DNA of 64,000 nucleotides. Source: Marsupella aquatica (taxonomy: Eukaryota; Plantae; Marchantiophyta). The stretch is from the NCBI GenBank assembly GCA_973895155.1, contig OZ316892.1, positions 1,739,223 through 1,803,222 on the forward strand, given 5' to 3'. The stretch's first letter is position 1; the number at the start of each line of letters is the position of its first letter. The notes under the pieces were generated by a model. That model did not search any database. It had not been told where the DNA came from and saw nothing but the letters and a program-made list of their open reading frames with translations. A program made the translations under genes and the position numbers. This document shows, piece by piece, positions 3,701 to 59,900 of this stretch.

Positions 3701-4739
3701 AAGATGGAAAGTAGCCCCCTCAGACTCACTGCCCTCCCCCTCAGGGATTACAGCCCCTTCCAGTCCATGGGTTACCAGGCTACACCTGATGAGAGAAATC
3801 CAATGAGCTACAATGAATAAATTGTCACAATTGTTTGGATGTATTACAGTGGCAATTCCTTGTAGAATCAGGTTGAATTTGGAATCTATTAATGTGTTTT
3901 GGATAGTAGTGATCTCATTGACTCTACAAATCTAGACAGTATTTCAGGCCTTTTATGATGAAACAAGAGTCATGATGTGATTGATGCAAAAGTTGACACT
4001 CTCAAAATGCCCTGTCAGTAATCACAAATCCATATGTGTTAATATATGGTATGCACTAAAGAAAATAATGAGATTTATCATGGTATGGAGAGATGACATA
4101 TGCCATATGTGTCATATTATTTTGAACTGCAATTACCACGGCCCCTCAAAATGTGCTAACTAATCCATCTGTCTGTACTTTATGTACTGAGTGTCTCGGG
4201 GTGGGACAAGCTGGACCGGGGTTGCGAAAATACGGGACAAAATAATAATAATGCCGTTCGCCACGGTTCCATGGGCGATGCCAGTGCGCCACCGGCAGTA
4301 TGGCCACGCCCCGCCGTATGAAAAGGTGTGTCAATGGCAGCGGTACACAGCAGTAGTAAGGAAGAAGTAACCCGGGGTCTACGGAACCGACGCAGTCACC
4401 CTGGTTACGGAAGAGGTTACAGTACGAAACGGGGGCTCCTCCACTCCTGACTCCTGACTCCTGACGATGGTTAGGGCAACCATGCCGTAGCTTACGGTCC
4501 GGGGTCACCGTCGGTAGCGTCGCGGTCGGACGGCAGAGATGGAGTCGTAGCCTAGAATAGCATAACAGGTGCAGCGTAGTAAATAATAAAGATTGCTGTT
4601 GGCACTACTAGTGTATTCGCTCTCCCGTGTGTTGGGGAGTGTGGGGGTGTGTGTTTTGCGGGTGGCTGAGTGAGTACAGTAGTATGGTATGGTTTTCGTC
4701 GTGCGAAGAAAAGTGGAGTAATAATACATCACGACGATC

Positions 4740-7700
4740 ATGGCACCAGATCTGCTGCGATCTTTCCCTCTCATCCAATTCAATTCATCGCTCTGCTCTC
4801 CTTCGCCCGCGACCTTCGACGCCGATCCGTTGAAGTGGATCGAGCTCGGTGAGCAGCAGCAGCAGCAGCGCAAGCTGCAGCAGCAACAGCAACGAGAGCA
4901 ACGACTAGAGCAAACAACTCCGCCAGGGCCGTGCTAGATAGACGGGCGCGGGCGTCGGTTCAAGCCTGAGGAGAAGCAACCGATCTGTCTCCGCGTTGTT
5001 GCTTTGTTTTGCTGTCGATCGCTATGCGGGATTGATTGATTGATGGATTGATTGAGTGAGTGAGTGAGTGATTGAGTGAGTGAGTGATTGAGTGCTTGAT
5101 TGATTGAGTGAGTGAGTGAGTGAGTGATTGATTCTCTTTGTCGATCGGGGTGGGGTGGTGGATCGGGGCGGAAATTGACTGACTGAGCGGACTGCGAGAA
5201 GGCTTGCGGGCGGGCGGGCGGGCGGGCGGGCGAGCCAGCTGGACGACGACGATGATGTGATGAAGGATGGATCCGGGGCTGGACGGAGGATTGGTGGCTT
5301 CTCCGACGTGCGCTGTTTGATCCGTATGTGCTGCTGACTGCTGCTGGCTGTGCTGCTCACTTGCTGTGGCCTCTCCAACTGCTTTCTGTTGTTGTCGTTG
5401 TCGTCGTAATCTTGGGGTTGACCCCCGGCGGATTGCGTGTGCGTGCAATTTCCGATCTCGGCGGGTGCTCTGCTGCCTCCTGTGCTCTGATCTGCGTGAC
5501 ATTAGGGACTGACTTAGGGTTTCTAGCGCCGGGGCGAATTCTCTCTCTATCTCGTTCTCGTTTCGGTTTGAATTAATCTACCTGTCCGTCTTTCTCTCGG
5601 TTTGGTGAATTCAAGTGTTCCGTTTGGAGGAGTGTGTCGCTCTTTTTTGTGCAAATTAGGAGCGCGATGGGACACGGTCTGGTGCAAATTTTGCCAAGAA
5701 AGTGAGGGAGAACGATGGGAAGACACGCGCGAAGATGCTGGAGCACAATTGTTGTGGTCAATCGTCGTTTCCTTCGTCATTTCTGACAGCTGATGAAAGT
5801 GAGGAAGGCTATCTTTCCTGATTTGGAGCAATCGATTTCATATTCACTTATCGCGGACGGAAATAGTTTACTGTGTGTCGCTGAAGCAGGCCGACGCTTG
5901 TACTCTGTCGGCAAATTTTTCTTCAGCTGCATTTGAGTGTAGGAAATTATCGCAACGGTTTGGCTTTCTTGGCAGCATTTTGATGCTTCTACCATTGCTT
6001 GTTCGGGTTCGGAGCCTCACGTCCGACATAGTCGCCGATACGATTATTATGTTGATGTCAGCAGGACTTCATGTTCAAGCATGCCGGCTCGATTTCAATA
6101 TCTGTCGACGGTAGCCTCACCATCTTTCCTGTCGGATTTACCGTTCGCTACACCCGCACTTCCCGTGTCCAATATTCTTCTTGTCCAGTCCTCTAGTTAC
6201 CAGCATTCTCCTAGTTCCTAGTGTCGGTAAATTTCCGTGAGCTGGTCGGGTTGTTTCCGTTTCTTTTCGTGTGTCTTTTGGCGAAGATTCTGTATAAGTT
6301 TGGACCGGGGTGTACTTCCCGTCATGGTTTAATATTAATGATCCTTGTCTTGCTGCCGTTGTCGTTCAGCATAGTCATCAGCCAGAAAAGTTTTTAGAGA
6401 TCCAGTGTGAAGCGGACCGAAGGAACCTATGCTTCTTTGCTCGTGTAGCATATCGAATTTGGATTGCACAAAGATGCATGATGGATTAAATGGTGATTCC
6501 AGTCCACGGTTTATTTTTTCCTTTTACTAGTAAATATTTTTGACCATAGGTGGATGCGTGGGAGGAGTTTCTGAGCAGAGAGCAGAGAGCACGGAGATTG
6601 AGTTCCTATTTAGCCATACTCTCTTCGCGGTAAGTGATGGTTTGTCGTCTTCTATCCCTGCTAATGGCATAGAACTTGAACAGCCATAGGTCATGTATTG
6701 GTTCCTCGTCGAGCCTTGCGATCCGCCGACGTCGGAGCTGTCAATTGGTACACGATTGAGCATTGCCCCGTTTGAACTCCTTTTTATAAAAGTCAGTGAG
6801 GAGCCGATTCACGAACATGTTTAGGTCGACTACTCGCGGAAGGGTTCTGCGATGTCACATGTCTTCAGTCCATAGTTATTCGCAGTGAGGGTTTGGTCCT
6901 TGCAACAGCTGGGATTGTAATCTGTAATCTTAGATTACCATCCGTGAGTTTTCCTCGTACCTCATGAATGGTGTAAGATTCATCACGAATCTAATGTCGT
7001 AAGCTATCAATTGTCCAATACCTACTATGCCCTTGTGATCATTGGTGCTGCGACTCTCAACGCCTCTGCTACTACAGGATAATTTAATGACATTAGTTCT
7101 TGCCATCATGGGTGTCAGGATGGCCGGGCGTGGGTGTGGTTTGGTTACAAACCATTCCATGGCCAATTCTTGAGGACTCCCCAGATCTGGATTTGGGGAA
7201 TGGAAACCTAATCTCATTGATATTCCTCGATGTTAGAACGATTTCAGTCTTGCATTGACAGAAGTGACCGGAGGCCCTGAACAAGATGAGGCGGTGGCAG
7301 TCTTTTTGGCGAACCTTTGCTCATGTCTACGGAGACTTGTCCTATTCTTAGTACACTCAAGATTTTATTAGGGTATGTGGGCAAGTTTTGAACTTTAAAA
7401 TCACTTGAAATGGACTATGGGTTGTTGGATTATCACTTCGTGACCTCCGTGACGATAATTAGTCATTCCGACTCTGGTCGGTTTAGTGCTTGCAGTTTCA
7501 ATCCATCAAGGCAGCGTCCTTGCACGATGGACGGTATTCTGTTAGTAGCAATTATGGGCAGCAGTTGTTTTCGAGATTTTTTAGTGCAAATGCTTTTCCT
7601 CGTCGTGTCTAGCTCGTTGGTGGTCGTTGCCGACTGTAGAGGTCTTTCATGACCAAGCAGTGGTCTGAATAAATTTCCCTGCTGTACCTCAGGCATGAGT

Positions 7701-8401
7701 TGCTCTTGACTACACTCATGTGGGGCACACCGCAGACCATTTTACCGCTGTCGTGTGAAGCATTTTCATGGAATAAAGCTGCCACTGCCCGTCTACTTTT
7801 CCAAAGTCTATGTGGACTCTTTGGCTTTCTTTTGTATATATTGATGGAGTTGAGGACTTCGTGTGAAGATTAGACATGTGATTCGGGCGTGAGATTTAGG
7901 TTAGCTCTGCCTGTAGTCTGCTTTCCTTTTCGGAAAGGGACTAAATCCTAGTCTAATTCACGACGTCCTCTACTTGTCTGCCGTCTTCCCTCTACTATCA
8001 TCCGTCCTTCATGCCGGGTGGACGAGAATTCCTTTAATATGTACACATTTATTCTCGTTCTCGTTCACGAACAATTATTGTTATGTATATGCCGGTATGG
8101 CCTTGCTTGTTGCGGGTAGTTTGTTCCATACAGCTTGACGTCCCATTTAGCGCGGCTCGCCTTATTCCTGGAGCAAAACAGCCGAATTCCTATCTGCTTT
8201 AGATTTTGAACGTGTCAAATAAAGCAGAGCTCTACGGACGGAATGAGTTGTGGAGAATATGCTTGATATCTTTGTAGTGACTTGTTGCTGTAGAAGTTGA
8301 ATCTGACGTAGGGTGCTGGCTCATTTACTGTATTGGAGAGTTGTACTAAATGGAATATGAATGCTTGCCATGCAGCCGGTTGGTATGATGATTTTCATTG
8401 A
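4740..8401 (+). CDS. Putative spliced upstream ORF (44 aa: MAPDLLRSFPLIQFNSSLCSPSPATFDADPLKWIEL-A-GWYDDFH*), exons 4740-4848 and 8376-8401
   Basis: ATG at 4740 in context ATCATGG; donor G|GTGAGC at 4848/4849; acceptor ATGCAG| at 8375/8376; phase-1 join reads to TGA at 8399-8401. Unspliced it is the 65-aa poly-Q ORF 4740-4937. Intermediate exons are not excluded. Confidence 0.5.
5029..5232. repeat. Microsatellite cluster (GATT)n/(GAGT)n and (GCGG)n in predicted leader intron; (CAG)n at ~4853-4892
   Basis: Directly visible tandem tetranucleotide and trinucleotide runs. Confidence 0.95.
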
Positions 8402-8418
8402 TGTGTGGACTTCAAAGA

Positions 8419-10180
8419 ATGGCAACTGATCCTCCAAATGGTCCCACAGATCAAAATTTGCAAGTATGCCCACTCTCTCTTTTCTTACGAGTTCAGCGAA
8501 TTGTAAATGCGGTTCACTCCACTAAACAATGAAAAAGGATATTCTTTGTATATCCATGTTATTGTGGGCAACCAATGTATTCTTCTTTGTCCAGTATCAC
8601 AGACTATAAGGGGAATTGCTTGTTCGTTCGCAGGTGATATTGGCAAGTGTCAGTCCAATTCTGACCCAGTTGCCTAAGTGGATAGAGCTTGGTGCATATC
8701 TGGAGTTTGGAGATGACGAAGTTCGTCTGTGTGAGGGCTGCCATAATGTGTGTGAATGGGTCTATTTCAAGCTCTTACAGTTCAAGTAAGTGACCATTCG
8801 TAATGCGTTCTGCTTTACGGTTTGATTGTGCAAGCCTTGCGGACATCTGGTTAACATTGTTCCTGTGTCTGTACCTGGAACAGCTCTGATGGTCTGGAGC
8901 TTTGCGGTAGCTGCATGGAGAAGTACAAGAAGCCAACACCTTGGACACTCTATGTCCGCGAAGGTCTCATCTTTTTCTTGGGCTCCTTGAATGCCGCTGC
9001 TGGCCCACCAGCTTCCGTAAAATCTCCAGTCGGACTGGACGTCAAGTCAAATAATGAAGTCCAGGTCCCTACATCTGTTCCATTACCTTCTCCATCAAAA
9101 TCAGGGTCTCCAGCACATAGCTTTGAGCAAAACTCCCCATCTGGACAGGTCCTGGAGACCTGCAACTTTGCGGCGGTCGCTCAGTCAACCCCTTTGCTTC
9201 TTACATCATCGTCGGAGCCTTTGAATGGAACGCCAAGTACGGAACCGTTGCTTTTGAAGGCTGATGCAGAACCTGTGCTATTTTCATCAAGTTCGGAGCA
9301 AGTAATTTTCTCTCCGAGTGCAGAGCCAGTGCTGTTCAATTCAAATGCAGAGCCAGTTCAGTTCACCACCAAGTCAGAAGCTGGCCTTTTTGCATTAAAC
9401 CAAGCGCCAGTTTATTTTTCAACAAATTCGGAGCCGTTACATTTTACGTCAGATGCCGAGACATCCCTGTTCCCACCAAATGTGGAACAAGGGCAATTTA
9501 CGTCACATGCGGATCCAGCCCTACTTACATCTAATTCTGAGCCAGTACTTTTCACGTCCAATGCAGAGCCAGTACATTTCATCTCACATTCAAAGCCAAC
9601 GCTCTTTAGTCCCAACCCGGAGCCGGTACTTTTCACACCGTACCCAGAGACTGAAGCTTTTTCAGATTCTTTGGGCCATATACCGAAATCAGAGCCTCTG
9701 AGATTTACACCCACTCCTGAGTCAATCCCCTTCTCAGCAAATTTAGACTCCCTCCCTAAAGCACTTCAAGTTGTGAATCATGAACCCATGCTGTTCACAT
9801 CAAATTCAGGAACCTTGCCCACCACACCCAATTTTGAGCTGAGCCAGTCAAAGTCAAAAGCGGATGTCCCTACACCACCCTCTGAAACTTTAGTGAGAAC
9901 TCAGTCTAAAAGTGGCAAGAAAGTGTCTGATGGCACACTGGTAGATAGAATGCGAACAATTGTTCAGCAAGACTGTCGTTTAGGGAAAGACCTGTTCACC
10001 ACAGGTATTGAACTAGCCGAACGCTACAATTCCTGCTACAAGCATGAGACAATACATGTACGGAGAGTTTTTGAAGCGATGAAAACACTGGGATACACTG
10101 CCTCTAAAGACACTATGCAGGTTCAAGTTCAGAAGGTAAGGAGGAAGGTGAAGCTGATTTATGGCTTGGCCATGAAATAG
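8419..10180 (+). CDS. Unrecognised ~497-aa protein: Cys-rich (CEGC...CGSC, ZZ-finger-like spacing) N-terminus, 9-aa tandem repeats, basic helical C-terminal domain; exons 8419-8463, 8634-8785, 8884-10180
   Basis: GT-AG junctions (CAA|GTATGC, CGCAG|GTG, AA|GTAAGT, AACAG|C) join in phase (0, 2) into the 421-aa ORF 8915-10180: MATDPPNGPTDQNLQ/VILASVSPILTQLPKWIELGAYLEFGDDEVRLCEGCHNVCEWVYFKLLQF/NSDGLELCGSCMEKY... Confidence 0.8.
9188..9673 (+). repeat. Coding tandem repeat, 18 units of 27 nt (9 aa, consensus EPVLFTSxA/S)
   Basis: TPLLLTSSS EPLNGTPST EPLLLKADA EPVLFSSSS EQVIFSPSA EPVLFNSNA ... EPVLFTPYP ETEAFSDSL in unbroken 9-aa register. Confidence 0.9.
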
Positions 10181-11754
10181 ATAAGTGACTGTGACCAAGC
10201 CCTGATTCTTTTGCTAAATAAAGACATTCATACACAGGACTCTTAGCAGCTAGAAGGTGGGGTATCACATGTTAATTATGGCTGTTCGCTCTTTTATTCG
10301 TGGATCCCGCAAGCTGGTATTTTCATTCTCTGAACAAGTCATTGCGTTTGCTATTGCTACTTCATACATCCTCCCAAGTCGAGTAGCCTGAAACAGTTGC
10401 TTTGGAGGTTCTTTGTGCAATGATAATTACATGGTACCGGCCAGTGTGGTCATTCCGAATTTCAATCCACTGCTTTCAATTGTGTAATGTGTAAGATAGC
10501 TGCAAGTCCTTGACCTTTCCATCAGGGGATCCTATAGAAGAGCATTGTAGTCTACTTGCTGGGAAGTGTGTCAGATGCAGCTGGTCATGTGGGAAGGAAT
10601 GCTCGGAACTGCATGGTGAGTTTGTCCCCCCATGAAGTGAGTACCTCAGGCCTTTGGTTAGTCCATTACTAGGCACGGAGAGAAGAAAGATGCGGATCCA
10701 CTGCATTAGCTGTGAGGTATTTGAATTGCAACCATGTTTTTCAGAGCAATGGGCTCCTTGCGTACTATTTACAAGGATGCACATGTCAGCTCCGATCAAG
10801 TTTTCCAAATGAAAGGAGTGAATGTGAATTGGACGGGATTGGGGAAAAAGGTGGCTGTCTACAAGACAGTACCGTGAAGGACGAAATGTTTCTCCAAGTA
10901 AGGAATGCGGACTGGCACAGGTTGGGCAAGAGTACTTGGGAGACCAGGATATTCATCTCCCCTCTTTTCCACCCCTCCCCGCCCCCTTTTGTTTTCTAAT
11001 GAGTAATGTGCAGAGGTCTGACGTGATGCACAACAGCATACCCGAAGGTTCATGGGTCAATATCTTTTTAAAGTATACTGATTGTTGGGGAAAGTTGTAG
11101 AACACTCTAGCTTCTTCATTGTAGATCACTTCGTAAGAACAGAAATGATCTAAAACTTTCAAGGTAAGCATTGCGGAAAGAAAATATATACACTTTTGGG
11201 TAAGTGGGACGCATAGTATGTCCGTAGTTTGTCCGAAGATTCTCGCTGTACTAATCTCAGGAGATAAAAAAAGCCTTTCTCTCCGGCTTTCCCAAAGATC
11301 GAGGAGGTCTGTGTTATCTGCTTGTTTTATTTATTTATTCACAACTGCTATAGACGATTCCCTAGAGAGTCGTATTCCATACCTTTTCAGTTGTATTGGG
11401 AATACCGTCAAGAAAGAAATCTGAAATTGTGCGAATCTCGATCCTCTCCTGCTCTTCGGGAGACCTTGTCAACCCATGTGAGAAAATTTGCCATTGCAAA
11501 GCGATCCATTAATCAATATCTTCAAGCATTGGTAAAACCAGGTTGGGTGTGAGACCAGAAGCATATACGTTGTTGAGTGCTCCTGGTTTCTAGTTTCGTC
11601 AACTGAAAACTTATGACAACAACCTGGAGAAGGGACCAGTGTCACACACCAGGTGCATTTCAGCAAGGGGACATATGAAGCATATACATATACATGCAAA
11701 GCAATTGCGCGTTGTCATCACTTGATCAGGACATGAACACATTTAGAATGTGGC

Positions 11755-18429: not shown

Positions 18430-24540
<6,111 letters not shown>

Positions 24541-33516: not shown

Positions 33517-35409
33517 TCAGCTGAGAAAAGTGGTTCGAAGGCGGACACCTTGCTCGGTCTCACTAAGATAAGGGAACTCGATTTGGGGGCAATCCTCCAT
33601 CCCTGGCACGATCGCGGAAATGGGCTTCTTCCCCAACTCAGGGTCGTATTTACAATCAAAATTCTTGCTAGTGTACTGGTTGCAAACTTCCTCCGTTTGG
33701 CTGCGCTCACAAGACGGCAGCTTCTGGTCCTGTGCGTACCTGTACTCAATAAACCACGGCGACAGAGCTCCATAAGCCTGAGCTGAGCCTCCAAAAGTGG
33801 ACACGGGAGCTAGAACCAAATCGTCCACCATGCTCAAGAGGAGAATCTCCGTATACGCTTGCAAATCCACATCCACCCCGAACTCCTGTTTGTTCTCGTG
33901 CGTCAGCTGCACCACATTTACCTCACTCCCGTCCACTGTCGAATTCTCAATGTACATCTTCCTCACCACGTCGTGTAAGCTCAAGTATAGCGAAGTGACC
34001 AGCACGGAGATCCTCGTCGAGTTGCGTGAATTGTCATAATCATCAACAAGGCCAGGTAGGTTGGAGGAGGCTTTGGACGGGACTTCTTTCTCCAACAGCG
34101 CAGGAAGAATTCGATTGCTCGAAACGCAATCCACCACACGTTTGTTGATCAACTCATGCATCCGCCTGTACTGCTTTTGCCCCTTGAGATACCGCATTTG
34201 GATCCCTACTTTCCTATCAGCCGGTAGCAAGTAAGTGTCATGGAGCCGCTTGACTCGGGTCCAGATGTGATCGACGGGGAGAAGGAAAGACCGGAAGATG
34301 CGAGTAAGGATCACGTTGTCAGGGAAGAGAGCCTGTAGAGTGGGTCGGAAGGTGGGAATGGCGAAGGTTTTGGGGATGGTGTAAATGCATCCGGATAGAT
34401 ACACCCAGGTGATATCAGAATAGAAGGATTGCTCTGTTGGACAGTAGAACCTTTGGAACGGCTGCTTACGGTCTTTGATGTCTCCTGCAGCATAAGGGAG
34501 GTAGGAGGGAGGGGGAGCGGCGGTCAGATCGTCCTCTTGCTGCTCACAAATGCTCTCATGCTTGTCAATATGGCTGAAGACCTCGAGGGAGAGCTCCCAT
34601 TGGTCTCTGAAATGCTGTGGGGGAATAGGGAACGTCTCAGCATCCAGGATCCATGTGGAGCCGACGATTGGTTCGCAGATGGAGTTTGTCAAGTGGTGTG
34701 AGGTGGGCACCAGAATTACTCTCCGGGTGATAATGCCGTAGAACACCGAGTTCGCCACCACCTGCAGTCTGTTCCCGATTCCGATAGCGTCTTGAGTGTC
34801 TGCCACAACGAACTGGCAGCCGGTGTTGGTCTTCCTCTCCTTAAAGTACTCTTCAACGTTCCCCACTGCTTTCATGCACACACGGTGATACTTTGAGTAC
34901 TCTTCATAGACCTCCTCCCACAGGGGATTCAAGGGGAGATCCTTGGCGTGCTTCCGTAGAGCGTACATAGGGGCCAACTCCGTTCTGCTGCGGCATGGAT
35001 TCTTGCTTTCCCATTCTGCCAGCTGCTCTTCGCTGAGGCTGCCATCCCACCCCACGTAGCCTTCCCCTAAGGTGGCAGCTGCAACACGAGTTCTTTCCCT
35101 GAAGTCCTCGATCAAATCTCTCACTAACTGCTCCCCTGAACTGTTCTGCTTGGAGTTGTGCCCATCGAGCAAATTGAAGGGGGGCCTGTGGCACTCACGA
35201 GGGGCCGTCAGTCCGCTGCCGCTGTACCTGCCCCCGACCCAGACGCCTAAGAAGGAGGAAGACTCTAAGGTGGAAACGTAGTAGCCCAGGAAGCCCAGAA
35301 AAACCAGAGCACCGATGATCGCACCGCAGTGCTTCCCAGCCTTCGGCTTCTTCATTAGGACAAGCCTCCACTCAAAGGAGTTCCTGGGACTAAACTGAAA
35401 GGCGGTCAT
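33517..35409 (-). CDS. GT37-family (xyloglucan/galactoside 2-alpha-L-) fucosyltransferase, type II membrane protein, intronless CDS
   Basis: Long ORF with N-terminal TM segment (GAIIGALVFLGFLGYYV), CQFVV...GIGNRL..ANSVFYGIITRRVILV, KVGIQMRY, VLVTSLY, AYTEILLLSMVDDLVLAPVSTFGGSAQAYGALSPW, CERSQTEEVC. Real start probably ATG 35409 or 35355; the track start is a TTG. Confidence 0.92.
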   Translation of the reverse strand: MTAFQFSPRNSFEWRLVLMKKPKAGKHCGAIIGALVFLGFLGYYVSTLESSSFLGVWVGGRYSGSGLTAPRECHRPPFNLLDGHNSKQNSSGEQLVRDLIEDFRERTRVAAATLGEGYVGWDGSLSEEQLAEWESKNPCRSRTELAPMYALRKHAKDLPLNPLWEEVYEEYSKYHRVCMKAVGNVEEYFKERKTNTGCQFVVADTQDAIGIGNRLQVVANSVFYGIITRRVILVPTSHHLTNSICEPIVGSTWILDAETFPIPPQHFRDQWELSLEVFSHIDKHESICEQQEDDLTAAPPPSYLPYAAGDIKDRKQPFQRFYCPTEQSFYSDITWVYLSGCIYTIPKTFAIPTFRPTLQALFPDNVILTRIFRSFLLPVDHIWTRVKRLHDTYLLPADRKVGIQMRYLKGQKQYRRMHELINKRVVDCVSSNRILPALLEKEVPSKASSNLPGLVDDYDNSRNSTRISVLVTSLYLSLHDVVRKMYIENSTVDGSEVNVVQLTHENKQEFGVDVDLQAYTEILLLSMVDDLVLAPVSTFGGSAQAYGALSPWFIEYRYAQDQKLPSCERSQTEEVCNQYTSKNFDCKYDPELGKKPISAIVPGMEDCPQIEFPYLSETEQGVRLRTTFLS

Positions 35410-38400
35410 GGGCCTCCAACGCAAAAGGAAGTCGAATTTTTTTCCAATTTTAAGTCCGGTCAGCAGGCCCTGACCCACTCTAACGATGAGAATGACCCCC
35501 ACCCCCAAATCGTTCGCTGGACAATCAGAATGACTGAAGGGGATCTACTCCTAATCTCTTTCCTTCTTCGTCACGAACCATTGCTAAACCCCTACTGATG
35601 TATTCACGAGTTCTAATCCACCTGCGAGTCTCAAGCAGACTGGTCCAATTCCCCACTCTAATTCGCTGCTGAGATCGGGATGAGAATCTGATCCGACACA
35701 ACTGCATGCCAACCGTTTTCAACTCTACTCCATTACTCCACTCCACTGCACTCCCAATTCAATTCAATTCGGATCCTTCACTCTAAACCCCAATCTCCCC
35801 AAAACTGTGTTAAGCTTCAGCTCGGTTCAACTGCCAGAGATTTCGAAAAGCTCCCGCTCCAACCCGTCAACTTAACTCGTCCTTCCGTCCGTCGTTCCTC
35901 CTGGGTTGATCATGACCATCACAAACCACACCAAGTCTGTTCGCCTTAAGCTCGATTCCAACAGCACGAGAGAGTTTCGTGGTCCGTCCCGCTAATGCAC
36001 CACAGGACTAGTCCACAGGGAGCTCCCCTTTGCACCCCAGCAGCACAACCACACCCGAACCAACCGAACAGAGTCGGACGGCAACCATGCCACACCGGAA
36101 TGTAGACGAGCTTGCTGGATTTTGCTTCCAGCCTGCTCCACGCGGCATGCTCGATAATCACCAAACTCAGCGGCTGACCCCGGGCTTTTGCAGCACGACT
36201 TCTTCAGTTGCATCCACGCCAGACCTTTGTGGCAGAAGGGAAAAGACACCTCGCTATCACACCGCGTGCTAACAGTTCAGGCAGGCCCCATTTTATTCGA
36301 ATCAATGGGCATCAGCCCTGCATGGAGGGAGGGATGGAGGGGCTTACACCGCCCCAAGTATACCCTCTTCCTCCGGGCTCTTCCTCAAGCTAGCACCAGC
36401 AGGCAGTAGTAGTAGCAGTAGTAGTTCAGTGGAAGAGTGTGATGACGGCGCTCTCAGTAACGTGGTGACGGCTCTCTCAGAAACGTGGGCAGCCATGACA
36501 CTCCCCATGGCCGGGAAATCGGGTTCGTTTCCATCTGCTTGGATGCCAGAACGACGGGTCTCTCTGACGCACCGCCGGCAACGGTTCTGAAATCTGGGCA
36601 CATTCGGTATTCGGTAAGCGATGAAGGAAAACTCGAAAAACGGAGGTAACAAACCGCACTTTCGCTGCCAGGACGTCTCGTCTCGAGCGGCTTGCGGAAA
36701 TAATAATGCGGGCTATGGCAGAAGCTGACAAATTAAGCAATCGAAAAAGCAGTAAACCGCGATTCTGCAGAACAATATGTTTGTTCTGTTGCGTAGATTT
36801 GTCTCCTTTGTCACGCTACTGTATACTCACGCAGGTTACTGTCGATGACTACGGTACTTACTCGTTGTATTCTTATGAAGAGAGTGGCTACTGCATTGTT
36901 TCTTTTTTCCTCTTGTTCTCATTGATCTAAGAGCCTGAATGCACATTCTTTGAATGAGTATGGGTCCATAACAAAAATTAAACAGGCATAATCATTTTGA
37001 CATACCATATACACTGTTTACTCTCCATGGAAATACATTTGGTGGGGCCCTAGAGTTAGTGTCATTTGGTGGGGCCTTAGAGTTACTGTCTAGAGTGTTC
37101 ACTAGAAGCCTAGACCCCAAGTCTGGCTTCTATTTGCAAATTAGTACTAAGGTACTGTCGATGACTAAGGTACTTGCTTGTTCTATGCTCATGAAGAGTG
37201 ACCAATGTATGCTTTTAGTCCTCTTGTTCTCATGTAATGTATCTATCTATATGTATAACTAATTGTGAGACTAATTGCAACGGAACAAAAGGCGCCCAAT
37301 GTGGAGACACTATCCCACAGGAAAAAAAACCCAATCAAGGGAAGTCAACCAAAGAGCCAACTAATCGGGTCTCAGTAACTGCACATCAAAATATGACATA
37401 TACGATGTATGACACCCCTGCATACTGTGATAATCTTACTGTAATGTTTTCTTCCATCAATGAATGCAGTCACATTTTGATGTGTGATTACCAGCAGGGC
37501 AACTAATCCATGTGCTGTCTTGAATAGTTCTCTGTTAAGCTTATTAGTTAGAGCATGACCCAATACTTCAGCCTTGTGGGGTGGTTGTGTTGTGGTCCTG
37601 ATATTGTTGTAATTGTGTCATCATGCTATCTTTGTGAAGTGATGTAGCTACTTTCATGATGACATTCCCACCATATAGCCAAACTATGTGGCCTGGACAG
37701 GGTATTTTTTAGTGAATAGGGAGGTGACACAAATGGCCAAATTATACATTTTTTGATTGAGCTCAAGACACTTGCTGTTGTATGGCCAATTTTAACCATT
37801 TGATCACATATGGGTTGATCTTACCTGTTAATAGAGTTAAGATCATACATCTTAAATCTACTCAATCATCGATGTTGCTTTTAGAGTTGCTAATTGGGCA
37901 AATAATTCAGCATTTTTTAAAAGAGGTCCATTGTAAATTCACAATTATTGTGTCCGGCTGCTCAACTGGTGAAAATTTGGCAGCAAAATGTTCCCTGTGT
38001 TGGGAGAAGAAACAACTCAATCATTAGCCTTGCAATACCAAGAAACAAACCCTACTGTTCTCAAACATGCTGGCCACTTGGTCCCAGACCCACCTAAATG
38101 TCCCTCCTGGCCACCATTCATAGGCTCAAGAAGAGGTTGGGAGAGAAGGCCTCAGGTAATGGCTGCCATCCTAGGCAAACTATACAGATTGATCAAGGGG
38201 TTTCCAGTTGATAAAGTTGGTCATTCTGCCTAAACTAAAGCTTTGCTTTTTGTGTGATAGTGCACTGCCACAGGTGGGGAATGGTAATTGCCCAATCTTC
38301 AGCCTGACTGCCAATTTGTCTCGTACTTTGGCCAATGCTGGTTGTGAGAGGTCTCCACGTACTCTCCAGCCTTGGCTCAGCAGCCTTACACAATGTTTGT

Positions 38401-45187: not shown

Positions 45188-46380
45188 TCAGTATTGTTGA
45201 GCACGTACTCGTGCACATTTTCTCGTTCCATATAATCTGACTAGATTCAGTATTGTAGAAGCTCCCTCCAAAATTGTGTTGTTCATCCATTCTGACTCAT
45301 TTTTATCCCATATGTGAGATGTCACGTCTTTGAACCCAGTCATGTATTTTGTCACAAATCCGATTGCCTGATTCAGAATGTACCCCCCTACGATTAATCT
45401 CTTTGGCCGAGCTTTGTTCCTCACAATGCCCTTTACAAATTTCATGTACTTTTCAAAAGGATACATCCATGTCGCTGATACAAAATCGCGCATGTCTACT
45501 TTCTCCATCAAGTGTGTCATGATGTCAAACAAGGAAGAAGGAAAATTCATTTTTAATTGACAGAGAGTTACTACTGCATCATCCATGAGGCTGTGAAATT
45601 CATTCGGATCTTGTGTTTTTTTACAAATACGTCTAAAAATTTCTGCATACTCTCATGACAGTAATCCTTGGAGCTTTTGACTTCCAATTCCTAACTGCAA
45701 GAGGTAGAATTTGTTGCATCGTGATATGATAGTCGTGAGATTTCATGCTTCCCAACTTTTCCTTTGGATTCACATGCCTCTTGAAATTCCCTTAATATCC
45801 ACAAGGAACTTTCAAATTCTGTATCCCTCTAAGAAACTCTCCTTTTTCCTCATCTCTCAATGTATAAGAAGCAAGAGACATCAGATGCCCCTTGTTTGGT
45901 CCTCTAAATGTTTTTGGCAAATGCAAATGTAACCTTATGTTTTCATATTCCATGTCCTTTCGAGAATCGGCAGTGTCTTTTTTTGCCAAGAGAGTCCAAA
46001 TGATATTCTCACATATATTTTTCTTGGTATGCATCACATCTAGTATGTAATGTATCAAAAGCTCCTAGAAGATCCACTCAAACTTCAATAACATCCAAAA
46101 CCTTGAATGAAAATTTTTTTATTGGACAAATATTTTTCATTATTGTCTAGCTACTTATGTTCAAAGAGTGCAAGGAGACTCACCCCCAATATGGTAGGTC
46201 ATGGAAACAAGTTCATCTGGGTATTGTCCAAGCTTGTATCGCATTGCAATTTGCGACGCATAACCAGATCATCAATGTCCACCTTGTCCTATGACAGAAT
46301 TTGCAATCCATCAATAATCTTAGGCGGGTACTGGTACAAACACTTCGCATCATAGTAGGTCCAAATGAAGCATTGCAAAC
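45188..46380 (-). pseudogene. Decayed CACTA/En-Spm transposase (Transposase_21/DUF4218 region)
   Basis: Fragments IHYILDVMHTKKNICENIIWTLL, YTLRDEEKGEFLRGIQNLKVPCGY, LCQLKMNFPSSLFDIMTHL, WMYPFEKYMKFVKGIVRNKARP, with stops and frameshifts. Confidence 0.88.
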
Positions 46381-50873: not shown

Positions 50874-52349
50874 TCACATGTAAGTATTTCCAACGCCCTC
50901 TTCATCACTCTCATCAAAACGAGTTTGGCGCCAACGGGCTTGGGCATGTGCATAGTCCCGGTCCCTCTTGTAAGTGCCATACAAAAAGGTATAGCAGAAG
51001 CAGCACAAACCAAAGGGCACTGCCATGACTGAGAACAACCCTCTAGAGAGCGCTCTGGCCTCTGTCACTGAACCTGTTTCTGGAATAACTTGATCTGCTC
51101 TGTAGCCAAACACGTTCTCGGACAGAAGTCCCACCATAGGAGCAGCCATGGCACCCCAGGACCCCTCAAAAGCCCGATCAAAAGCATACACCATTGTCCT
51201 ATTTTGTTCAGGAACGACATCTGCAAACATGGGATTGTTGGCACAGGCTTGGCACCAACTCACTGTCAACCCCATGAACAACATTGTGGCTGCATAGGAC
51301 ATGTAGTAGGCTGGATCTTGAGGCAAACATAGGAGAAGAAGATAAGAGAATGGAATGCCCATGAAAGAGCTGAACTGAGCACAATATATACGCCCGGAAC
51401 CAGGATACATCCTTTCAGCCGTGTCCCCCATCCATCCCCCAAAAAGGGCACCAACAGCACCGCCAGCTGCGAAGATGCCCATCAGGCTGGCTGCACCACT
51501 GTGTCCAAAACCTACAAGCTGCAACCACATTGTGAAAAATACCATTGCTGTCCAAGGTAATGACCCGACCAGCCCCTGTAGCACAATGATCTGGAAAGTG
51601 CGGACTTTCATGACTGCCTTCACAGCAATCCAGGAGTCTCTCCATGCAGTTTGAAGATTCTTGACCACTTTCTCTTCCTCGAGTCTCTCGCTGATCAATT
51701 GTCTGCCGCTTGCGGACCGTGATATTCTCGGAGTCCTGGGATCGGTGACGAGAGTATGCACAAGCCAACCTATGAGTGTGCTCACTACAGCCATTATTAA
51801 AAATGCCAATCGCCAGCCAGGTAGTGCTCCATAGGTGTGCCCTGCCATGATTGTTGCCATCATAGTACCCCCAATACCACCCACAGATCCAACGAGATTT
51901 AACCAACCAAATGCCACGCCTCTTGTTCCCTCCAAGTAGCTGTCAGCTGTGAAAGACTGAAGTGCAGGGATTACAATCGCCAGCCCGACACCATTAACAG
52001 CTCTGGAAAGAGCACACTGGAAAAAATTCTGAGACACAGCAACCGCTGCTGTGGACAGTCCCCAGAAAAGAGTGCCAAAACCTATCACAGATGGTCGATG
52101 ATATCGCATTGCTAAAAGCCCGGCGAGAGGAGACGAGATCGCCTGCACAAGTGACCTGATGAAAGTCAAGCTCCCCAGCTGTGATGGGCTGGCATTGAAT
52201 GCTTGGCCCACTTCCTTGTACACGGCTGGAAGCAAAGACTCATCCGCCTTCTCCATGATGGCGGCCAAATTTATCAAAATTAATGAGAGGGTGATCCCTC
52301 CCCATAACGCCTTCATTTTGTCCCTGTGCCCGGATGGGCTGTACAGCAT
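50874..52349 (-). CDS. Major facilitator superfamily transporter (spinster-like plant MFS), intronless CDS
   Basis: ~490-aa ORF with ~12 hydrophobic segments; LILINLAAIMEKADESLLPAVYKEVG, RAVNGVGLAIVIPALQSF, TFQIIVLQGLVGSLPW, VYAFDRAFEG, ARALSRGL, LYGTYKRDRD. Start ATG 52349 or 52316. Confidence 0.93.
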   Translation of the reverse strand: MLYSPSGHRDKMKALWGGITLSLILINLAAIMEKADESLLPAVYKEVGQAFNASPSQLGSLTFIRSLVQAISSPLAGLLAMRYHRPSVIGFGTLFWGLSTAAVAVSQNFFQCALSRAVNGVGLAIVIPALQSFTADSYLEGTRGVAFGWLNLVGSVGGIGGTMMATIMAGHTYGALPGWRLAFLIMAVVSTLIGWLVHTLVTDPRTPRISRSASGRQLISERLEEEKVVKNLQTAWRDSWIAVKAVMKVRTFQIIVLQGLVGSLPWTAMVFFTMWLQLVGFGHSGAASLMGIFAAGGAVGALFGGWMGDTAERMYPGSGRIYCAQFSSFMGIPFSYLLLLCLPQDPAYYMSYAATMLFMGLTVSWCQACANNPMFADVVPEQNRTMVYAFDRAFEGSWGAMAAPMVGLLSENVFGYRADQVIPETGSVTEARALSRGLFSVMAVPFGLCCFCYTFLYGTYKRDRDYAHAQARWRQTRFDESDEEGVGNTYM

Positions 52350-54075
52350 AGAAGCTAAACAGATAGAGCGCAATCTAAAGGCCCTTGCAGTCAGTAGTTC
52401 CCTCTGAAGTGCGGTCTACCAACTTCCTCCAGCTCAGAAATAAAAATGACTCAATTCGTTGACTGCGGGTGTGCCTTTCGATGCTGTACGCGCGTCCACG
52501 CTGCTCACTTGCCTCAACATGTCCCAATGCACCCAATTCCCGAGGCTGCAGCTACGTGACTATGCCGGTAGAAAATATGAAGTCCATCCAGGATGACAAC
52601 TTTCCATCCTGCTCCACCATGAAAATTCCCCTCACAGGCGATTGGCGGGTATGGGTTCTGCACAGAATTGTCACCGGACGAACGACTGTCCAAATGCCCG
52701 AGTTTATCTGATTTGCGGCCACAATATTGGCCGACGGAGGGAGGGAGTCTCTCGTGTCCCGTCTATAGAGTCGAATGTAATTCGCGATCTCCAACCCCAG
52801 TATTTCAACTCACGATGCTGGCATCCTTGAAGCTGTCGCCGGCGGACAAAATTTGATATTCAAACTCACAAGCGCATAGAACCATCAAACTATCCGCTAG
52901 CTCTCCACAAACTACGGCCGTTGCCATTCAGTCTGCAATGAGTCTCATCTCTTCTCGTCCCGTCTCGCCTAATGCTCGAGAAACTCTGGATCGGGAGATG
53001 CAAGCAAAAACAAAGAATCTCGAGTGCTAAACTCGTCCCCGAGACTGCACCAGTATCTCGTTTCCGCATTACAGGACACTCTTCAGCAGGGAGACTGCGT
53101 ATCATTCCAGGGTCGATTGCAATTTCCTAGATGGACTTGCCATCCGTCAAAGAAAACCTGAGTACAGTTCCACTCCCGAAAAATTGCGATAGCGGACTAG
53201 ACTAGACTAGACTAGACTAGAATAGACTTCCATGTGCCATGAATCAGTGAGAGAAACTTTCGGCAGGAAACCTGAGCATCACTCCCCGAATGGACGAATA
53301 CAAACCATCCGTCAACGAAACCCATCCTGAAAAACTTCTGTTCAATTCGTTGGACGAGTTCTCGCGCATCTCCACCAAATCCCAGCTCAAAAACTAAGTG
53401 AGCGACCGCAACAGCGAGCGGAGTAAAGTCGGTTTGTCTAGGTCCTTCCGGCGGCGCATCATCCAGACGCCCTGTCCCGTTCTCTCTTCTCCCCCTCTCA
53501 AATTAATCCTCGAAATGACTTGCCGTCCAGTCTCAATGCTCATCAGGGAACCAGTCCGATTCGGACTGACGAGAAAGAGGCTTCATGCTCGAGAGTCGGT
53601 GAGTCTGCAACTCCCAACTCACTCGTGCTCTCGAGACTCTGCCCGAATGAATGGTGCAGGCCGCGTGGGAGCTCCCGAAGCGAGGGAGTGATAATGAGCT
53701 CCAGAGTGCAATCAGTAAGTTGTCGAATGTCGATTGGAAGAAATTCGATTTGCAGAAAAGGGAAGAGAGGACCACGGGCGGAAGAAAGGAGAGTGACGAC
53801 CCTCGTGCTTCGACGAGTCATTCGTGCAGTCATCATCATGACGAGACCGTGGGCTTCCCTCGGATTTAGACCGCTACAGCATGGGGATAATAATGGAAAA
53901 CGGGTGTCAAGCTCTGCTAATTTGCTTTCCGTGGGTGTACTGGAAAGCCCTTTTCCATGCAGAGTCTAAAAGAGTATCCTCACCTATCTCTTGTAATAAT
54001 AGGCCTGGTGCTGGCAAAACTGGTGATATCCAAGTCTGCCCCCTCTTTTGCTTTGTTTTTGCATCCCAAGCCTGC

Positions 54076-56992: not shown

Positions 56993-59900
56993 ATGTCTCT
57001 CAGCTATTCGATCCCTGTAAGTCATTCCTTCACCACGGTTGACGTCTGTGAAAAACTTATGCAGCTAGAATTTGTACTTCGCTGATACATAACCATACGT
57101 TTACTGATGGGTGGGGTGGAGAATGTACCACCCATCAAGTACGTATACACAGATGGCCTACCTGGTTGTTAGTTACTCATCACCAAGCTATACACTTCAA
57201 ATTCTTGTGATAAAAATTTGGTTCATTCACCGTCATACATGTTCTGTTGCTGCAGCGGCTTACAGACTGCGAAAGTATGGGAGTGCAGTGTCTCAAGTGG
57301 AGTCAGACCAGGCATAATTCGAGCAGCTGTCTGCCCGATCGGATTTATGGAATGGCGAGCACCTCGTCCACAGTTCATATGAGATCCAAGTTGGCAGCAA
57401 AAAGAAACTGGAACGTCGAAACGAAGAGGACCAACGAGGTGACTTGGAAGGGTCCTGCAAAATCTAATTATGGTGAGGGTCAAAATATTCTCGGAGATGG
57501 GGTATATAGTTTGAATACCTAGGAGAGGTGAAGGTTAAATGTGAGAGGTTTGCGCTGAGCTTTAGGATTAATCACTATGTGGACATTTTCAAATCAGTGG
57601 AAAACCTCGACCGGATGGAAGCCGATTATATCATACGTTATGTCCTGTGCATGGAAAATCATTTAGGGGATGAAATGTGAAAACTGTATCTACTCACATT
57701 CCTGTCCGTGCAGGCCAGATTGAAATTGTAGAAGAACGCTGGCGGCAGTTCTTCTCGGATCCTTCACAGTGGTGGGACCACAGGTCGGGTAAGGTGATAA
57801 GTTCACTAGAACCTCGAGCAAAGAAAATGGATAAAGAAAATCGCTTCGAGTGAGATGTTATATTGTGGCTCTTCTCTGTCAGTTTTGCTGGAACTCTGGC
57901 TTATTCACGTCAGAAAGATGTGATTGAAGCTTCGAACATATTCGAAATTTTGTGTGCCAGACCATCGTGAAATATCCAGAATTTAAGCTCTGAACATATT
58001 CGAATGTGTGTCTCCCAGACAAATGTGAAATTTCCAGATTTTAAGCATAAGCAGACCGAGGAGGCACTTTGGATCAATGACCAATTAAACCCTGAATGGG
58101 TGGAGGCTCAGCTGGCGACAATAGTACCAGGAACCGTAAAGCAGCCGCTATCTTACTGGAATAGAGAAATTGAAGGGAATATCAAGGAAAAAAATTACAA
58201 GATGGCGTTGGAGCTCTTCGAGCAAATGCGGCGAGAAGGGGTGCGAGCGGACAAATTCACGCTCAACGCAGTGCTCAGAGCCTGTGTTAAGACTCGAGCA
58301 CTTGAGAAGGGTAGAGATATTCACCGACAGGTCACTGAAGATGGATTTGAGGTGGACCCTTTCATTGGAACAACCCTGTTTGACATGTACGTTAAATGCG
58401 GGAAGGTTGATGATGCATACAAGGTGTTCAAGAACACGCCCAGAAAGGACGTGTTTTTGTGGACTTCCATGATCGTGGCGTATGCCAGGAGTGGGCGAGG
58501 AAAACAAGGGCTAAAACTATACCGAGAGATGGAGTCAGCAAATGTGGCTCCAGGTCCGAAGACATACGCTGCCGTCCTCAATGCTTGTGCCAATGTAGGA
58601 GCCCGGGAAGAAGGCAAACGTGTACATGCCCAGATCAAGCAAAGTGGTTGTGAATCTGATATCCTTGTAGGTAATAGCCTGGTTGACATGTATACCAAAA
58701 CTGGAGGCATTGACGATGCACAAAGTGTATTTGACAAGATGCACACACGAAGTGTGACAGTGTGGAATGCCATGATTGGGGTATATGTCAAAGGTGGACA
58801 AGCACAAAAGGGATTAGAACTTTATAAACAAATGCAAATGGAAGGAAAGGTGTTTATTCCTGCCACCTTCATGCTGGTACTTAAAGCTTGTACATGTCTA
58901 GGGGCACTCGATGAAGGCCGGCATGTGCATGCACACATCACTAAAAGTGGCTGTGAATCTAATGTTTTTGTGGCTGGGAGCCTAGTTGACATGTACGCCA
59001 AGTGTGGGAGCATAGAGGATGCAGAGAACGTCTTTGGCACGATTCCAGAATGGAATGCAATGTCCTGGACTACTTTGATTGGGGGATATGTAAAATGTGG
59101 ACGAGGGGAGAAGGCTCTAGAGTTATATCAACAAATGCAAGACGCAAAAGTGACCCCAGTTCCTGCAACTTTTGTGGGTGTCCTAAATGCATGTGCCTCT
59201 ATTGGTGCGCTGAAAGACGGACGGGAAGTTCATGCACAGATCATTCAAAGAGGTTGTGAAACGGACATGTTTGTGGGTAGTAGTCTGATTGCAATGTATT
59301 CGAAGTGTGGGAGCGTTATGGAAGCACGCGCAGTGTTCAATAAGATCAGTACACGCAACGTAGTATCTTGGAGTGCAATGATTCTTGCACATGTAAAATC
59401 TGGGGAAGGGAGGAAGGCAATAAAACTGTATCAGCAAATGCTCGGCCAGGGTTTGAGGCCATTTCCCGCCACCTTTCTCGCAGTTCTGAATGCATGTGCA
59501 AGTGTAGGTTCACTTGAAGATGGCAGGCGTATTCACGAACAGATCATTCAGAGTGGCTGTGAATCTGATATCTATATAAGGAGTAGCCTGATTGACATGT
59601 ATGCTAAATGTAGAAGCATACACGATGCAGAAAAGATATTCAGAAAAATTTGTAACCACAGTGTGGGCTCCTGGAATGCCATGATCAGCGGTTATGTGAG
59701 GTGTGGACAAGGACAGAAGGCATTGGATTTGTATAAACAAATGGAAGCAAAAGGGGTGGAGCCTGTTTCTGCCACATTTGTTGGCGTGCTCAGTGCTTGT
59801 GGAAATGAAAAGGCACTAGACTTCGGGAAGCGAATTCATGAGCAGGTAATCCAGAAGAACTATGAATCGGATGTATTTGTGGGTAGCAGCCTGATGGAGA

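What the first reader, a model, noticed from the sequence alone, without database searches (positions are those of the whole stretch)
4740..8915. Upstream micro-ORF that repeats two motifs of its own downstream protein, in swapped order
Seen: the ORF at 4740 encodes LIQFNSSLC and PLKWIEL(G/A). The spliced N-terminal domain of the gene at 8419 encodes LPKWIELGAY and LLQFNSDGLELC, the latter formed only across the exon 2/3 junction. The match is better at protein than DNA level (aag tgg atc gag ctc ggt vs aag tgg ata gag ctt ggt; caa ttc aat tca vs cag ttc aac tct), with mostly synonymous differences, which suggests selection on the peptide. A donor G|GTGAGC directly after KWIEL joins the acceptor at 8376 to give a 44-aa peptide ending KWIELAGWYDDFH*, 17 nt before the main ATG. 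Inference: one mRNA encodes a microprotein that mimics or competes with the interaction surface of the main protein, or a conserved-peptide uORF derived from the junction of a formerly tandem domain (which would explain the permuted order). I do not recognise it among described plant CPuORF groups.
Basis: partly seen in the sequence, partly recalled or inferred. Interest (0 to 1): 0.85.

Follow-up and report, generated by a model that had tools for sequence, protein, structure and literature searches.

The report
Liverwort leader peptide echoing own protein
A small reading frame in the leader of an unstudied liverwort gene, whose product is predicted to be a DNA-binding protein, repeats two short pieces of that protein, but the splice that was proposed to make a 44-residue mimic was not seen in relatives' transcripts, so it most likely works as an ordinary brake on translation, with a true self-mimicking peptide still possible but untested.

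Summary
The window is from a leafy liverwort (main protein 91% identical to a Calypogeia fissa protein; homologue of Marchantia Mp1g11580). The gene model and both motif matches are real. The proposed 4848^8376 splice is not supported: all 4 runs laid from relatives splice 5323^8376, and contigs of 3 runs read through 4848. The uORF is therefore an unspliced 65-aa ORF in exon 1 with a variable tail, not a 44-aa peptide. The two-motif match has p about 1e-3 per leader, which chance can give in a genome scan. A post hoc model fits better: codons 9-37 align in one piece (15/29) to coding exon 2 joined head to tail (0 of 10,000 simulated leaders), though the spacer alone is not significant. In relatives the motif blocks show no listed synonymous change and two amino-acid changes, including W33R at the family-invariant Trp, which points to nucleotide rather than peptide constraint. 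The main protein belongs to an undescribed liverwort and lycophyte family with a predicted zinc-finger domain and an RFX-like winged helix. Best reading: a cis-acting repressive uORF (0.65); self-mimic peptide 0.17. No distant-liverwort leader could be obtained; that is the decisive test.

The parts
3771..3783 (.). X-box-like palindrome (only exact match to the recalled RFX consensus in the 64 kb)
   Evidence: consensus recalled; function untested
4395..4408 (.). X-box-like palindrome, one mismatch on each strand
4504..5323 (+). Exon 1 of the transcript (non-coding leader; 5' end not determined, an X1 contig reaches 4504); a third X-box-like site lies at 4504-4518
4684..4833 (+). 49-aa uORF overlapping the 4740 uORF in another frame, strong start context
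4689..4721 (+). 10-aa uORF ending 18 nt before ATG 4740
4740..4937 (+). The uORF of the finding: 65 aa, unspliced; strong context (A at -3, G at +4); Gln-rich tail from a CAG tract that is not alignable in X1
4740..4786 (+). Conserved block 1 (codes ...FPLIQFN); one listed change in relatives (R7L in X1)
4787..4811 (+). Variable spacer: 8 of 10 variable sites of the uORF fall here (p=0.002)
4812..4848 (+). Conserved block 2 (codes ...PLKWIEL); one listed change (W33R in X3); letters near contig ends in X1, X4, X5 not resolved
4849..4854 (+).
5324..8375 (+). Leader intron (GT..AG, 3,052 nt); long contigs of relatives also cover 5361-7900 at about 90-93% identity
8376..8463 (+). Exon with uATGs 8385/8388 (14/13-aa ORF overlapping the main start) and main ATG 8419
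8634..8785 (+). Coding exon 2 (152 nt): N-terminal helix, PKWIELG, first three Cys of the predicted zinc finger, ends in LLQF
8884..10180 (+). Coding exon 3: rest of the zinc-finger domain, 9-residue EP(V/L)xF repeats (27-nt period), C-terminal domain, stop
9914..10177 (+). Predicted RFX / D5-type winged-helix DNA-binding domain
   Evidence: model is of the lycophyte homologue P0015

Best explanation
The ORF at 4740 is an unspliced 65-codon upstream ORF in exon 1 of an unstudied liverwort gene whose product is predicted to bind DNA, and it likely acts in cis as a brake on translation (and perhaps a trigger of mRNA decay), with the resemblance to the main protein likely being chance or a non-functional relic. 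Shown: the leader intron is 5324-8375, the uORF is read through 4848, and the spliced leader carries 12 upstream ATGs, among them an ORF that overlaps the main start. Inferred: scanning ribosomes are diverted by the uORFs at 4684, 4689 and 4740; the 4740 stop lies 386 nt before an exon junction, which by recalled plant NMD rules (long uORFs, downstream junction) would favour decay; intron retention on both sides of coding exon 2 and in the leader would add further control. The conserved blocks are likely held at the nucleotide level.
For: Joint 5323^8376 in 4 of 4 runs, read-through of 4848 in contigs of X1, X3, X4. 12 upstream ATGs in the leader from 4504. The uORF tail is not conserved: X1 has 79 letters in place of 114 after 4846, so stop position and C-terminus vary. 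Motif blocks: 0 listed synonymous, 2 non-synonymous changes, W33R at a Trp invariant in all aligned family rows. Whole uORF 5 of 11 changes synonymous, p=0.11. Conservation extends outside the uORF (4681-4740: 3 listed changes in X4; blocks at 4961-5004 and 5268-5323). Two-motif match 5 of 5,000 simulated leaders, i.e. tens per genome by chance (inference, about 20,000 genes). A second X5 contig type joins 4786 to 5304 with no alignable KWIEL block (weak, shorter side only 20 letters).
Against: Both matches fall in the conserved N-terminal domain (1 of 50,000 shuffles; 0 of 5,000 leaders) and in the two least variable blocks of the uORF (clustering p=0.002). One alignment to coding exon 2 head-to-tail scores 58: 0 of 50,000 shuffles, 0 of 10,000 simulated leaders, 0 of 292 window stretches, best other 47. 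The ATG is kept in the 2 runs that cover it (X1, X4), and LIQ matches the Marchantia main protein (FKLIQYNS) better than its own. Only close relatives were seen, they are not independent (X3, X4, X5 share changes), and W33R rests on one metatranscriptome contig (depth 16.8; a second short contig of depth 8 keeps T). No translation data.
Confidence: 0.65

Rival explanations
1. The uORF makes a peptide that mimics two surfaces of its own protein's zinc-finger domain (the PKWIELG segment and the hairpin tip) and acts in trans on the protein or its partner, like uPEP2 of PKC-eta. The product would be the unspliced form with a variable tail, not the 44-aa form.
For: Domain-restricted match 1 of 50,000; motif blocks conserved, spacer variable; strong start context, ATG kept in X1 and X4; both motifs also match the Marchantia protein; a precedent exists (PMC8501901).
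Against: W33R in X3, R7L in X1, no listed synonymous change in the blocks; none of the five family Cys is copied; two upstream ATGs in good context precede it; no uORF homologue of 35-114 aa sharing three 5-mers among 5.8 billion proteins (short ORFs are poorly called, so weak).
Confidence: 0.17
2. Origin hypothesis, compatible with either function: codons 9-37 descend from a head-to-tail copy of coding exon 2 (reverse-transcribed back-spliced circle, or a short tandem duplication) that landed in the gene's own first exon.
For: Motif 1 ends at the 3' end of coding exon 2 and KWIELG lies 14 codons from its 5' end; the uORF spacer is 16 codons; single alignment 15/29 identical, 0 of 10,000 simulated leaders against all exon-junction targets. 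Reversed exon junctions mark circRNA-derived pseudogenes (PMC4897178).
Against: Model chosen after seeing the data. Spacer alone: p=0.17 in this species, 0.64 and 0.78 with relatives' alleles; DNA spacer p=0.62. A true back-splice of the 152-nt exon gives a stop at the junction; my target added the junction codon. No similarity beyond the 29 codons. No back-splice joint among those listed.
Confidence: 0.2
3. The leader blocks and coding exon 2 share a nucleotide element (site of an RNA-binding protein or small RNA, perhaps tied to the alternative splicing around this exon); the peptide match is a by-product.
For: 17 of 19 nt identical at KWIELG; no listed synonymous change in the blocks; a 30-nt piece of block 1 shared by two contig types in X5; coding exon 2 has few changes (2, 5 and 5 of 152 in X2, X3, X4; 18 in a second X3 type).
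Against: The DNA match alone is weak: 23 of 1,000 simulated leaders, 6 of 149 other window stretches; no Rfam match; no folding signal (z=-0.28).
Confidence: 0.12
4. One reading: a 4848^8376 splice gives a 44-aa peptide ending 17 nt before the main ATG.
For: GTGAGC is a plausible donor and 8376 is a real acceptor; contigs drop rare isoforms.
Against: Not among the joints listed; donor not alignable in X1; the acceptor is used with 5323 in 4 of 4 runs.
Confidence: 0.04

Closest known systems
uPEP2 (uORF2 of human PKC-eta; PMC8501901, abstract and section 5 read)
   Same: A uORF on the same transcript encodes a motif that also occurs in the downstream protein; it also represses the main ORF in cis.
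   Different: uPEP2 is conserved in length and sequence across mammals, shown translated and shown to bind and inhibit; its motif has a known autoinhibitory role. Here length varies, translation and binding are untested, and the motifs have no known role.
Plant conserved-peptide uORFs (CPuORFs; criteria recalled)
   Same: uORF in the leader of a predicted regulatory gene, ATG and N-terminal part kept in close relatives.
   Different: No peptide-level selection shown, C-terminus and stop not conserved, wide taxonomic conservation untested. CPuORF peptides are not known to me to resemble their own main ORF (recalled; searches gave no such case).
Plant microProteins such as LITTLE ZIPPER and miP1 (recalled)
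   Same: Short product with similarity to a larger regulatory protein.
   Different: Those keep a whole interaction domain and are separate genes or isoforms; this keeps two 6-8 residue pieces in swapped order and none of the zinc ligands.
circRNA-derived pseudogenes (PMC4897178, opening text read)
   Same: Exon end followed by exon start, in reversed order.
   Different: Those are recognisable DNA copies dispersed in mammalian genomes; here similarity is limited to about 90 nt, the spacer has no DNA similarity, and the piece sits in the parent gene's own leader.
RFX transcription factors and D5/P4 primase C-terminal winged helices (main protein)
   Same: Predicted C-terminal domain matches RFX5 (8zjr, Z 8.9, rmsd 2.6, 78 aligned) and RFX1 (1dp7, Z 7.5, rmsd 2.4, 71 aligned) best of 48,161 chains; Atlas features point to viral clusters, one with Pox_D5 on 17% of members.
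   Different: Identity only 5% and 17%; Foldseek E 0.007 and 0.011; phage and giant-virus proteins score as well or better. PMC2873420 (passages read) reports no RFX genes in plants and sets a 40% identity bar.
Helical and zinc-binding domain of JmjC demethylases (JMJ13, KDM6B, KDM5B) and the Nbr1 ZZ region (main protein N-terminus)
   Same: Weak structural matches: 6ip4 Z 6.2 rmsd 5.4 103 aligned; 9nqu Z 6.1; 5fv3 Z 5.9; 7dd9 Z 5.2 rmsd 2.5 44 aligned.
   Different: Z under 8 may be only a common arrangement; this part of the model has pLDDT 27-75; five Cys only; no JmjC domain; no Pfam match above cut-off.

Membership tests
CPuORF | uORF lies in the mature leader of the main ORF's transcript | tested here: met
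   X4 contig 4681..5323 plus joint 5323^8376; overlapping contigs of relatives, not one molecule
CPuORF | Purifying selection on the peptide (synonymous excess) | tested here: inconclusive
   5 of 11 changes synonymous, p=0.11; blocks 0 synonymous, 2 non-synonymous
CPuORF | Conserved C-terminal region and stop | tested here: not met
   After 4846 X1 has 79 letters for 114; X4 and X5 stop aligning at 4869
CPuORF | Peptide conserved across distant taxa | not testable with these tools
   No Marchantia, Riccia or lycophyte leader could be fetched
uPEP2-type self-mimic uORF peptide | Carries a motif of its own downstream protein | tested here: met
   KWIELG 6/6, FPLIQFNS 6/8
uPEP2-type self-mimic uORF peptide | Motif residues kept in orthologous uORFs | tested here: inconclusive
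   LIQFN unchanged in 4 of 4 runs as listed; W33 changed in 1 of 4 (X3); I34-G37 not resolved in X1, X4, X5
uPEP2-type self-mimic uORF peptide | Translated, stable, acts on the main protein or its partner | not testable with these tools
   Needs Ribo-seq, mass spectrometry and biochemistry
Plant microProtein | Retains one whole interaction domain of the larger protein | tested here: not met
   Two short pieces, swapped, none of Cys48/51/55/73/76
circRNA-derived retrocopy | Exon-exon junction in reversed order recognisable in DNA | tested here: inconclusive
   Peptide alignment across the junction 15/29, but spacer p=0.17 (peptide), 0.62 (DNA)
RFX transcription factor (main protein) | Winged-helix domain with long wing | tested here: met
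   Predicted model of homologue P0015, pLDDT 74-93 over residues 151-236; best match RFX5 Z 8.9
RFX transcription factor (main protein) | At least 40% identity to known RFX DNA-binding domains (PMC2873420) | tested here: not met
   5% and 17% in structural alignments of the homologue's model; no RFX hit at E<=10 in PDB sequence searches
RFX transcription factor (main protein) | Nine conserved DNA-contact residues; binds X-boxes | not tested
   Residues not mapped; X-box-like sites upstream are only a lead

The most novel reading that the evidence does not exclude
A back-spliced (head-to-tail) copy of the gene's own zinc-finger exon was captured into its first exon and kept as a uORF whose peptide mimics and restrains the gene's product, a plant RFX-like transcription factor that also binds X-box-like sites in its own promoter.
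Probability: 0.08. Interest if true: 0.9.

Novelty: new variant of a known kind. Interest (0 to 1): 0.4.

Why it matters
If the uORF is only a cis brake, it is ordinary, and what remains of interest is the main gene: an undescribed liverwort and lycophyte family with a predicted RFX-like winged helix, a fold class whose named members are reported absent from plants (PMC2873420). If the peptide proves conserved in Marchantia, this would be a plant case of a uORF that copies motifs of its own protein (the only precedent I read is PKC-eta uPEP2), with a testable route of birth from a back-spliced exon. One look at the Marchantia leader decides much of this, and Marchantia is easy to edit.

Tried and rejected
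uORF homologue search, residues 1-40, lengths 35-114 aa: no candidate; longer and shorter lengths were not searched. Metagenome contigs: no relative of the main protein among 201 pattern matches, no exact match to a 21-nt piece of block 1. Complex prediction of uORF residues 1-40 with the N-terminal domain and zinc: no verdict (score 0.00, alignment not used, partner fold uncertain); it says nothing either way. First fold of the full liverwort protein failed (pLDDT 33); the lycophyte homologue was folded instead. Atlas: no usable hit for the N-terminal domain. Pfam, PHROGs, PDB sequence and phage tblastn searches gave nothing above cut-off for the family. RNA structure or a known RNA family as the reason for the blocks: z=-0.28, no Rfam match. 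Inverted repeat 4849-4869 / 5340-5360 over the unused donor: CAG/CTG-rich and the intron arm changes in X1 and X5; rejected as a mechanism. X2 and the second X1 contig type do not cover the uORF: absence of cover, not counted as evidence. Whole-domain tandem origin rejected on spacer length. Of the 56 HMMER hits, I examined P0013-P0016, P0022, P0023 besides the three known; P0014 and P0023 were repeat-only matches and were dropped; the other 47 matched only the repeat region by coordinates and were not read. Earlier scan findings: nothing by place or sequence; 8 unrelated prokaryotic notes by words. Literature: 0 papers for Mp1g11580 or Mapoly0014s0068; listings only; the library lacks most subscription papers and I opened no supplements, where uORF or Ribo-seq lists for Marchantia might bear on this.


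Full report
What the window is. The ORF at 8419 splices into a 497-aa protein that differs from Calypogeia fissa CAM6127865 at 43 of 497 positions. Its exon-3 part finds 6 relatives, all liverwort or unnamed, including Marchantia Mp1g11580 and two Riccia proteins. A full HMMER search with a five-row profile gave 56 hits; by coordinates 3 new ones match the N-terminal domain: Diphasiastrum P0015, Selaginella P0022 and an unnamed fragment. No moss, fern or seed-plant member was recognised, but most unnamed repeat-region hits were not read. No paper in the held library names the Marchantia gene.

Splicing. Contigs of four runs from relatives were laid on 4300-10600. Only X3 is on record as RNA; the others are guessed RNA but carry GT-AG joints. 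Both coding introns are spliced in 4 of 4 runs. The leader joint is 5323^8376 in X1, X2 and X3, and the same joint with a differing letter in X4. A closer look at 4450-5400 with X1, X3, X4, X5 lists 4 joints, none from 4848. One X4 contig holds 4681-4869 and 5268-5323, an X3 contig runs 4753-4904, and an X1 contig runs 4504-4846 then 4961-5004 with 79 other letters between. So the uORF sits inside exon 1 and is read through the proposed donor. Here it is 65 aa; its tail differs among species. The 44-aa product is unsupported, though contigs cannot exclude a rare isoform.

Is the match more than chance? The two best ungapped segments are KWIELG (35) and FPLIQFNS against FKLLQFNS (32). Their sum is reached by 31 of 20,000 shuffles against the whole protein and by 4 other stretches of 4,426 in the window; by 1 of 50,000 against residues 16-102; and by 5 of 5,000 simulated leaders against the whole protein, 0 of 5,000 against the domain. 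That is unusual for one gene, but tens of cases per genome are expected at 1e-3 (inference). The DNA match alone (17 of 19) is reached by 23 of 1,000 simulated leaders and 6 of 149 other window stretches. The argument from synonymous differences is circular: 22% of random back-translations of KWIELG reach 16 of 18.

A better geometric fit. Motif 1 ends at the 3' end of coding exon 2 and KWIELG starts 14 codons after its 5' end; the uORF links the two by 16 codons. Against exon 2 joined to itself, uORF codons 9-37 align in one piece, 15 of 29 identical, score 58. No one of 10,000 simulated leaders reached this against the linear protein plus six exon-junction targets, and no one of 292 window stretches (best 47). 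Against it: I chose the model after seeing the data; the spacer alone is not significant (p=0.17 here, 0.64 and 0.78 with relatives' alleles, 0.62 as DNA); a true back-splice of this 152-nt exon would put a stop at the junction, and my target included the junction codon. It stays a lead for origin, with circRNA-derived pseudogenes (PMC4897178, opening text read) as the nearest precedent.

What is conserved. In codons 1-36, 10 sites vary among the four runs (11 changes); 8 fall in the 25-nt spacer (p=0.002). Five of 11 changes are synonymous against 24.7% expected (p=0.11). The two blocks that carry the motifs show no listed synonymous change and two amino-acid changes: R7L in X1 and W33R in X3. 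W31 of the main protein is invariant in the ten-row alignment. Differences near contig ends are not listed (1 in X1, 4 in X3, 5 each in X4 and X5), so I34-G37 are not resolved in three runs. Conservation also covers 4681-4740, 4961-5004 and 5268-5323, and the leader intron is about 90-93% identical in long contigs. This pattern fits nucleotide-level constraint in a generally conserved leader better than selection on a peptide, but the sample is small, close and not independent.

How it most likely works. The spliced leader from 4504 is 863 nt with 12 upstream ATGs, including two in good context just before 4740 and an ORF overlapping the main start. I infer repression of main-ORF translation in cis, and possibly NMD since the uORF stop is 386 nt before the junction (rule recalled, not looked up). 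Isoforms with extra sequence or retained introns around coding exon 2 occur in Marchantia, Riccia fluitans and two unnamed contigs, so the zinc-finger exon is a point of splicing control.

The main protein. A model of the compact lycophyte homologue (mean pLDDT 63.6, C-terminal domain 74-93) has a winged helix whose best match among 48,161 chains is RFX5 (Z 8.9, rmsd 2.6, 78 aligned), then RFX1 (Z 7.5); Foldseek ranks the same two first but at E 0.007 and 0.011, and viral primase-helicase ends and small viral proteins match too. The N-terminal part weakly resembles the helical and zinc domain of JmjC demethylases (Z about 6) and a ZZ finger (Z 5.2). It works like a DNA-binding or chromatin protein by prediction only; it is not an RFX member by the 40% identity rule of PMC2873420 (passages read). 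In the model, the KWIELG equivalent is a short helix at the edge of the low-confidence N-terminus and the LLQFNS equivalent is a hairpin tip that lycophytes do not conserve; I could not measure whether they are adjacent. Three X-box-like palindromes lie within 750 nt upstream of or at the transcript's known 5' reach, of 17 loci in 64 kb, including the only exact match (p about 0.005 for that kilobase; consensus recalled). Self-regulation is a lead, not a result.

Comparison and verdict. The nearest known case of the proposed mechanism is uPEP2 of PKC-eta (PMC8501901; abstract and section 5 read). Searches (listings only) showed no plant case, in a library that lacks most subscription journals. 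The finding fails the microProtein test, fails the C-terminal conservation test of CPuORFs and is inconclusive on selection. Observation partly confirmed; interpretation partly supported; cis brake 0.65, self-mimic 0.17, shared RNA element 0.12, 44-aa spliced form 0.04; exon-2 head-to-tail origin 0.2 independent of function. Interest 0.4, held up by the unexplained one-piece alignment and the undescribed RFX-like family.

Noticed in passing
window 3771-3783, 4395-4408, 4504-4518: Three X-box-like palindromes at or upstream of the 5' end of a gene predicted to encode an RFX-like winged helix; 3 of 17 loci in the window, p about 0.005 for that kilobase.
   Followed up: partly
window 5324-8375: The 3-kb leader intron is covered by long contigs in X1, X2 and X4 at about 90-93% identity, near the level of the coding region; X1 and X4 cover ends near 7760-7884, X2 goes further. 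Retained intron or intronic 3' end possible.
   Followed up: partly
window 8464-8633 and 8786-8883: Marchantia (2 species) and Riccia fluitans proteins carry a conserved 40-aa in-frame insert at the first coding intron; two unnamed proteins begin inside the second coding intron: alternative splicing on both sides of the zinc-finger exon.
   Followed up: partly
window 8385-8429: uATGs 8385/8388 open a 14/13-aa ORF overlapping the main start; the first 30 nt of this exon are identical in X1 and X3.
   Followed up: no
window 9213-9809: Nine-residue EP(V/L)xF repeats (27-nt period), present in liverworts and absent from the two lycophyte homologues; possible short binding motifs.
   Followed up: no
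window 4757-4786 (run X5): Two contig types in X5 share this 30-nt piece; the deeper one is otherwise not alignable until 5304.
   Followed up: partly
window 5017-5139: GAGT/GATT tetranucleotide tract in exon 1.
   Followed up: no
window 21534-23483 (-), 33517-35544 (-), 50874-52415 (-), 57971-61486 (+), 45188-45652 (-): Neighbours: MCM helicase subunit exons, xyloglucan fucosyltransferase family, MFS transporter, PPR-E-DYW editing factor, DUF4218 fragment.
   Followed up: no
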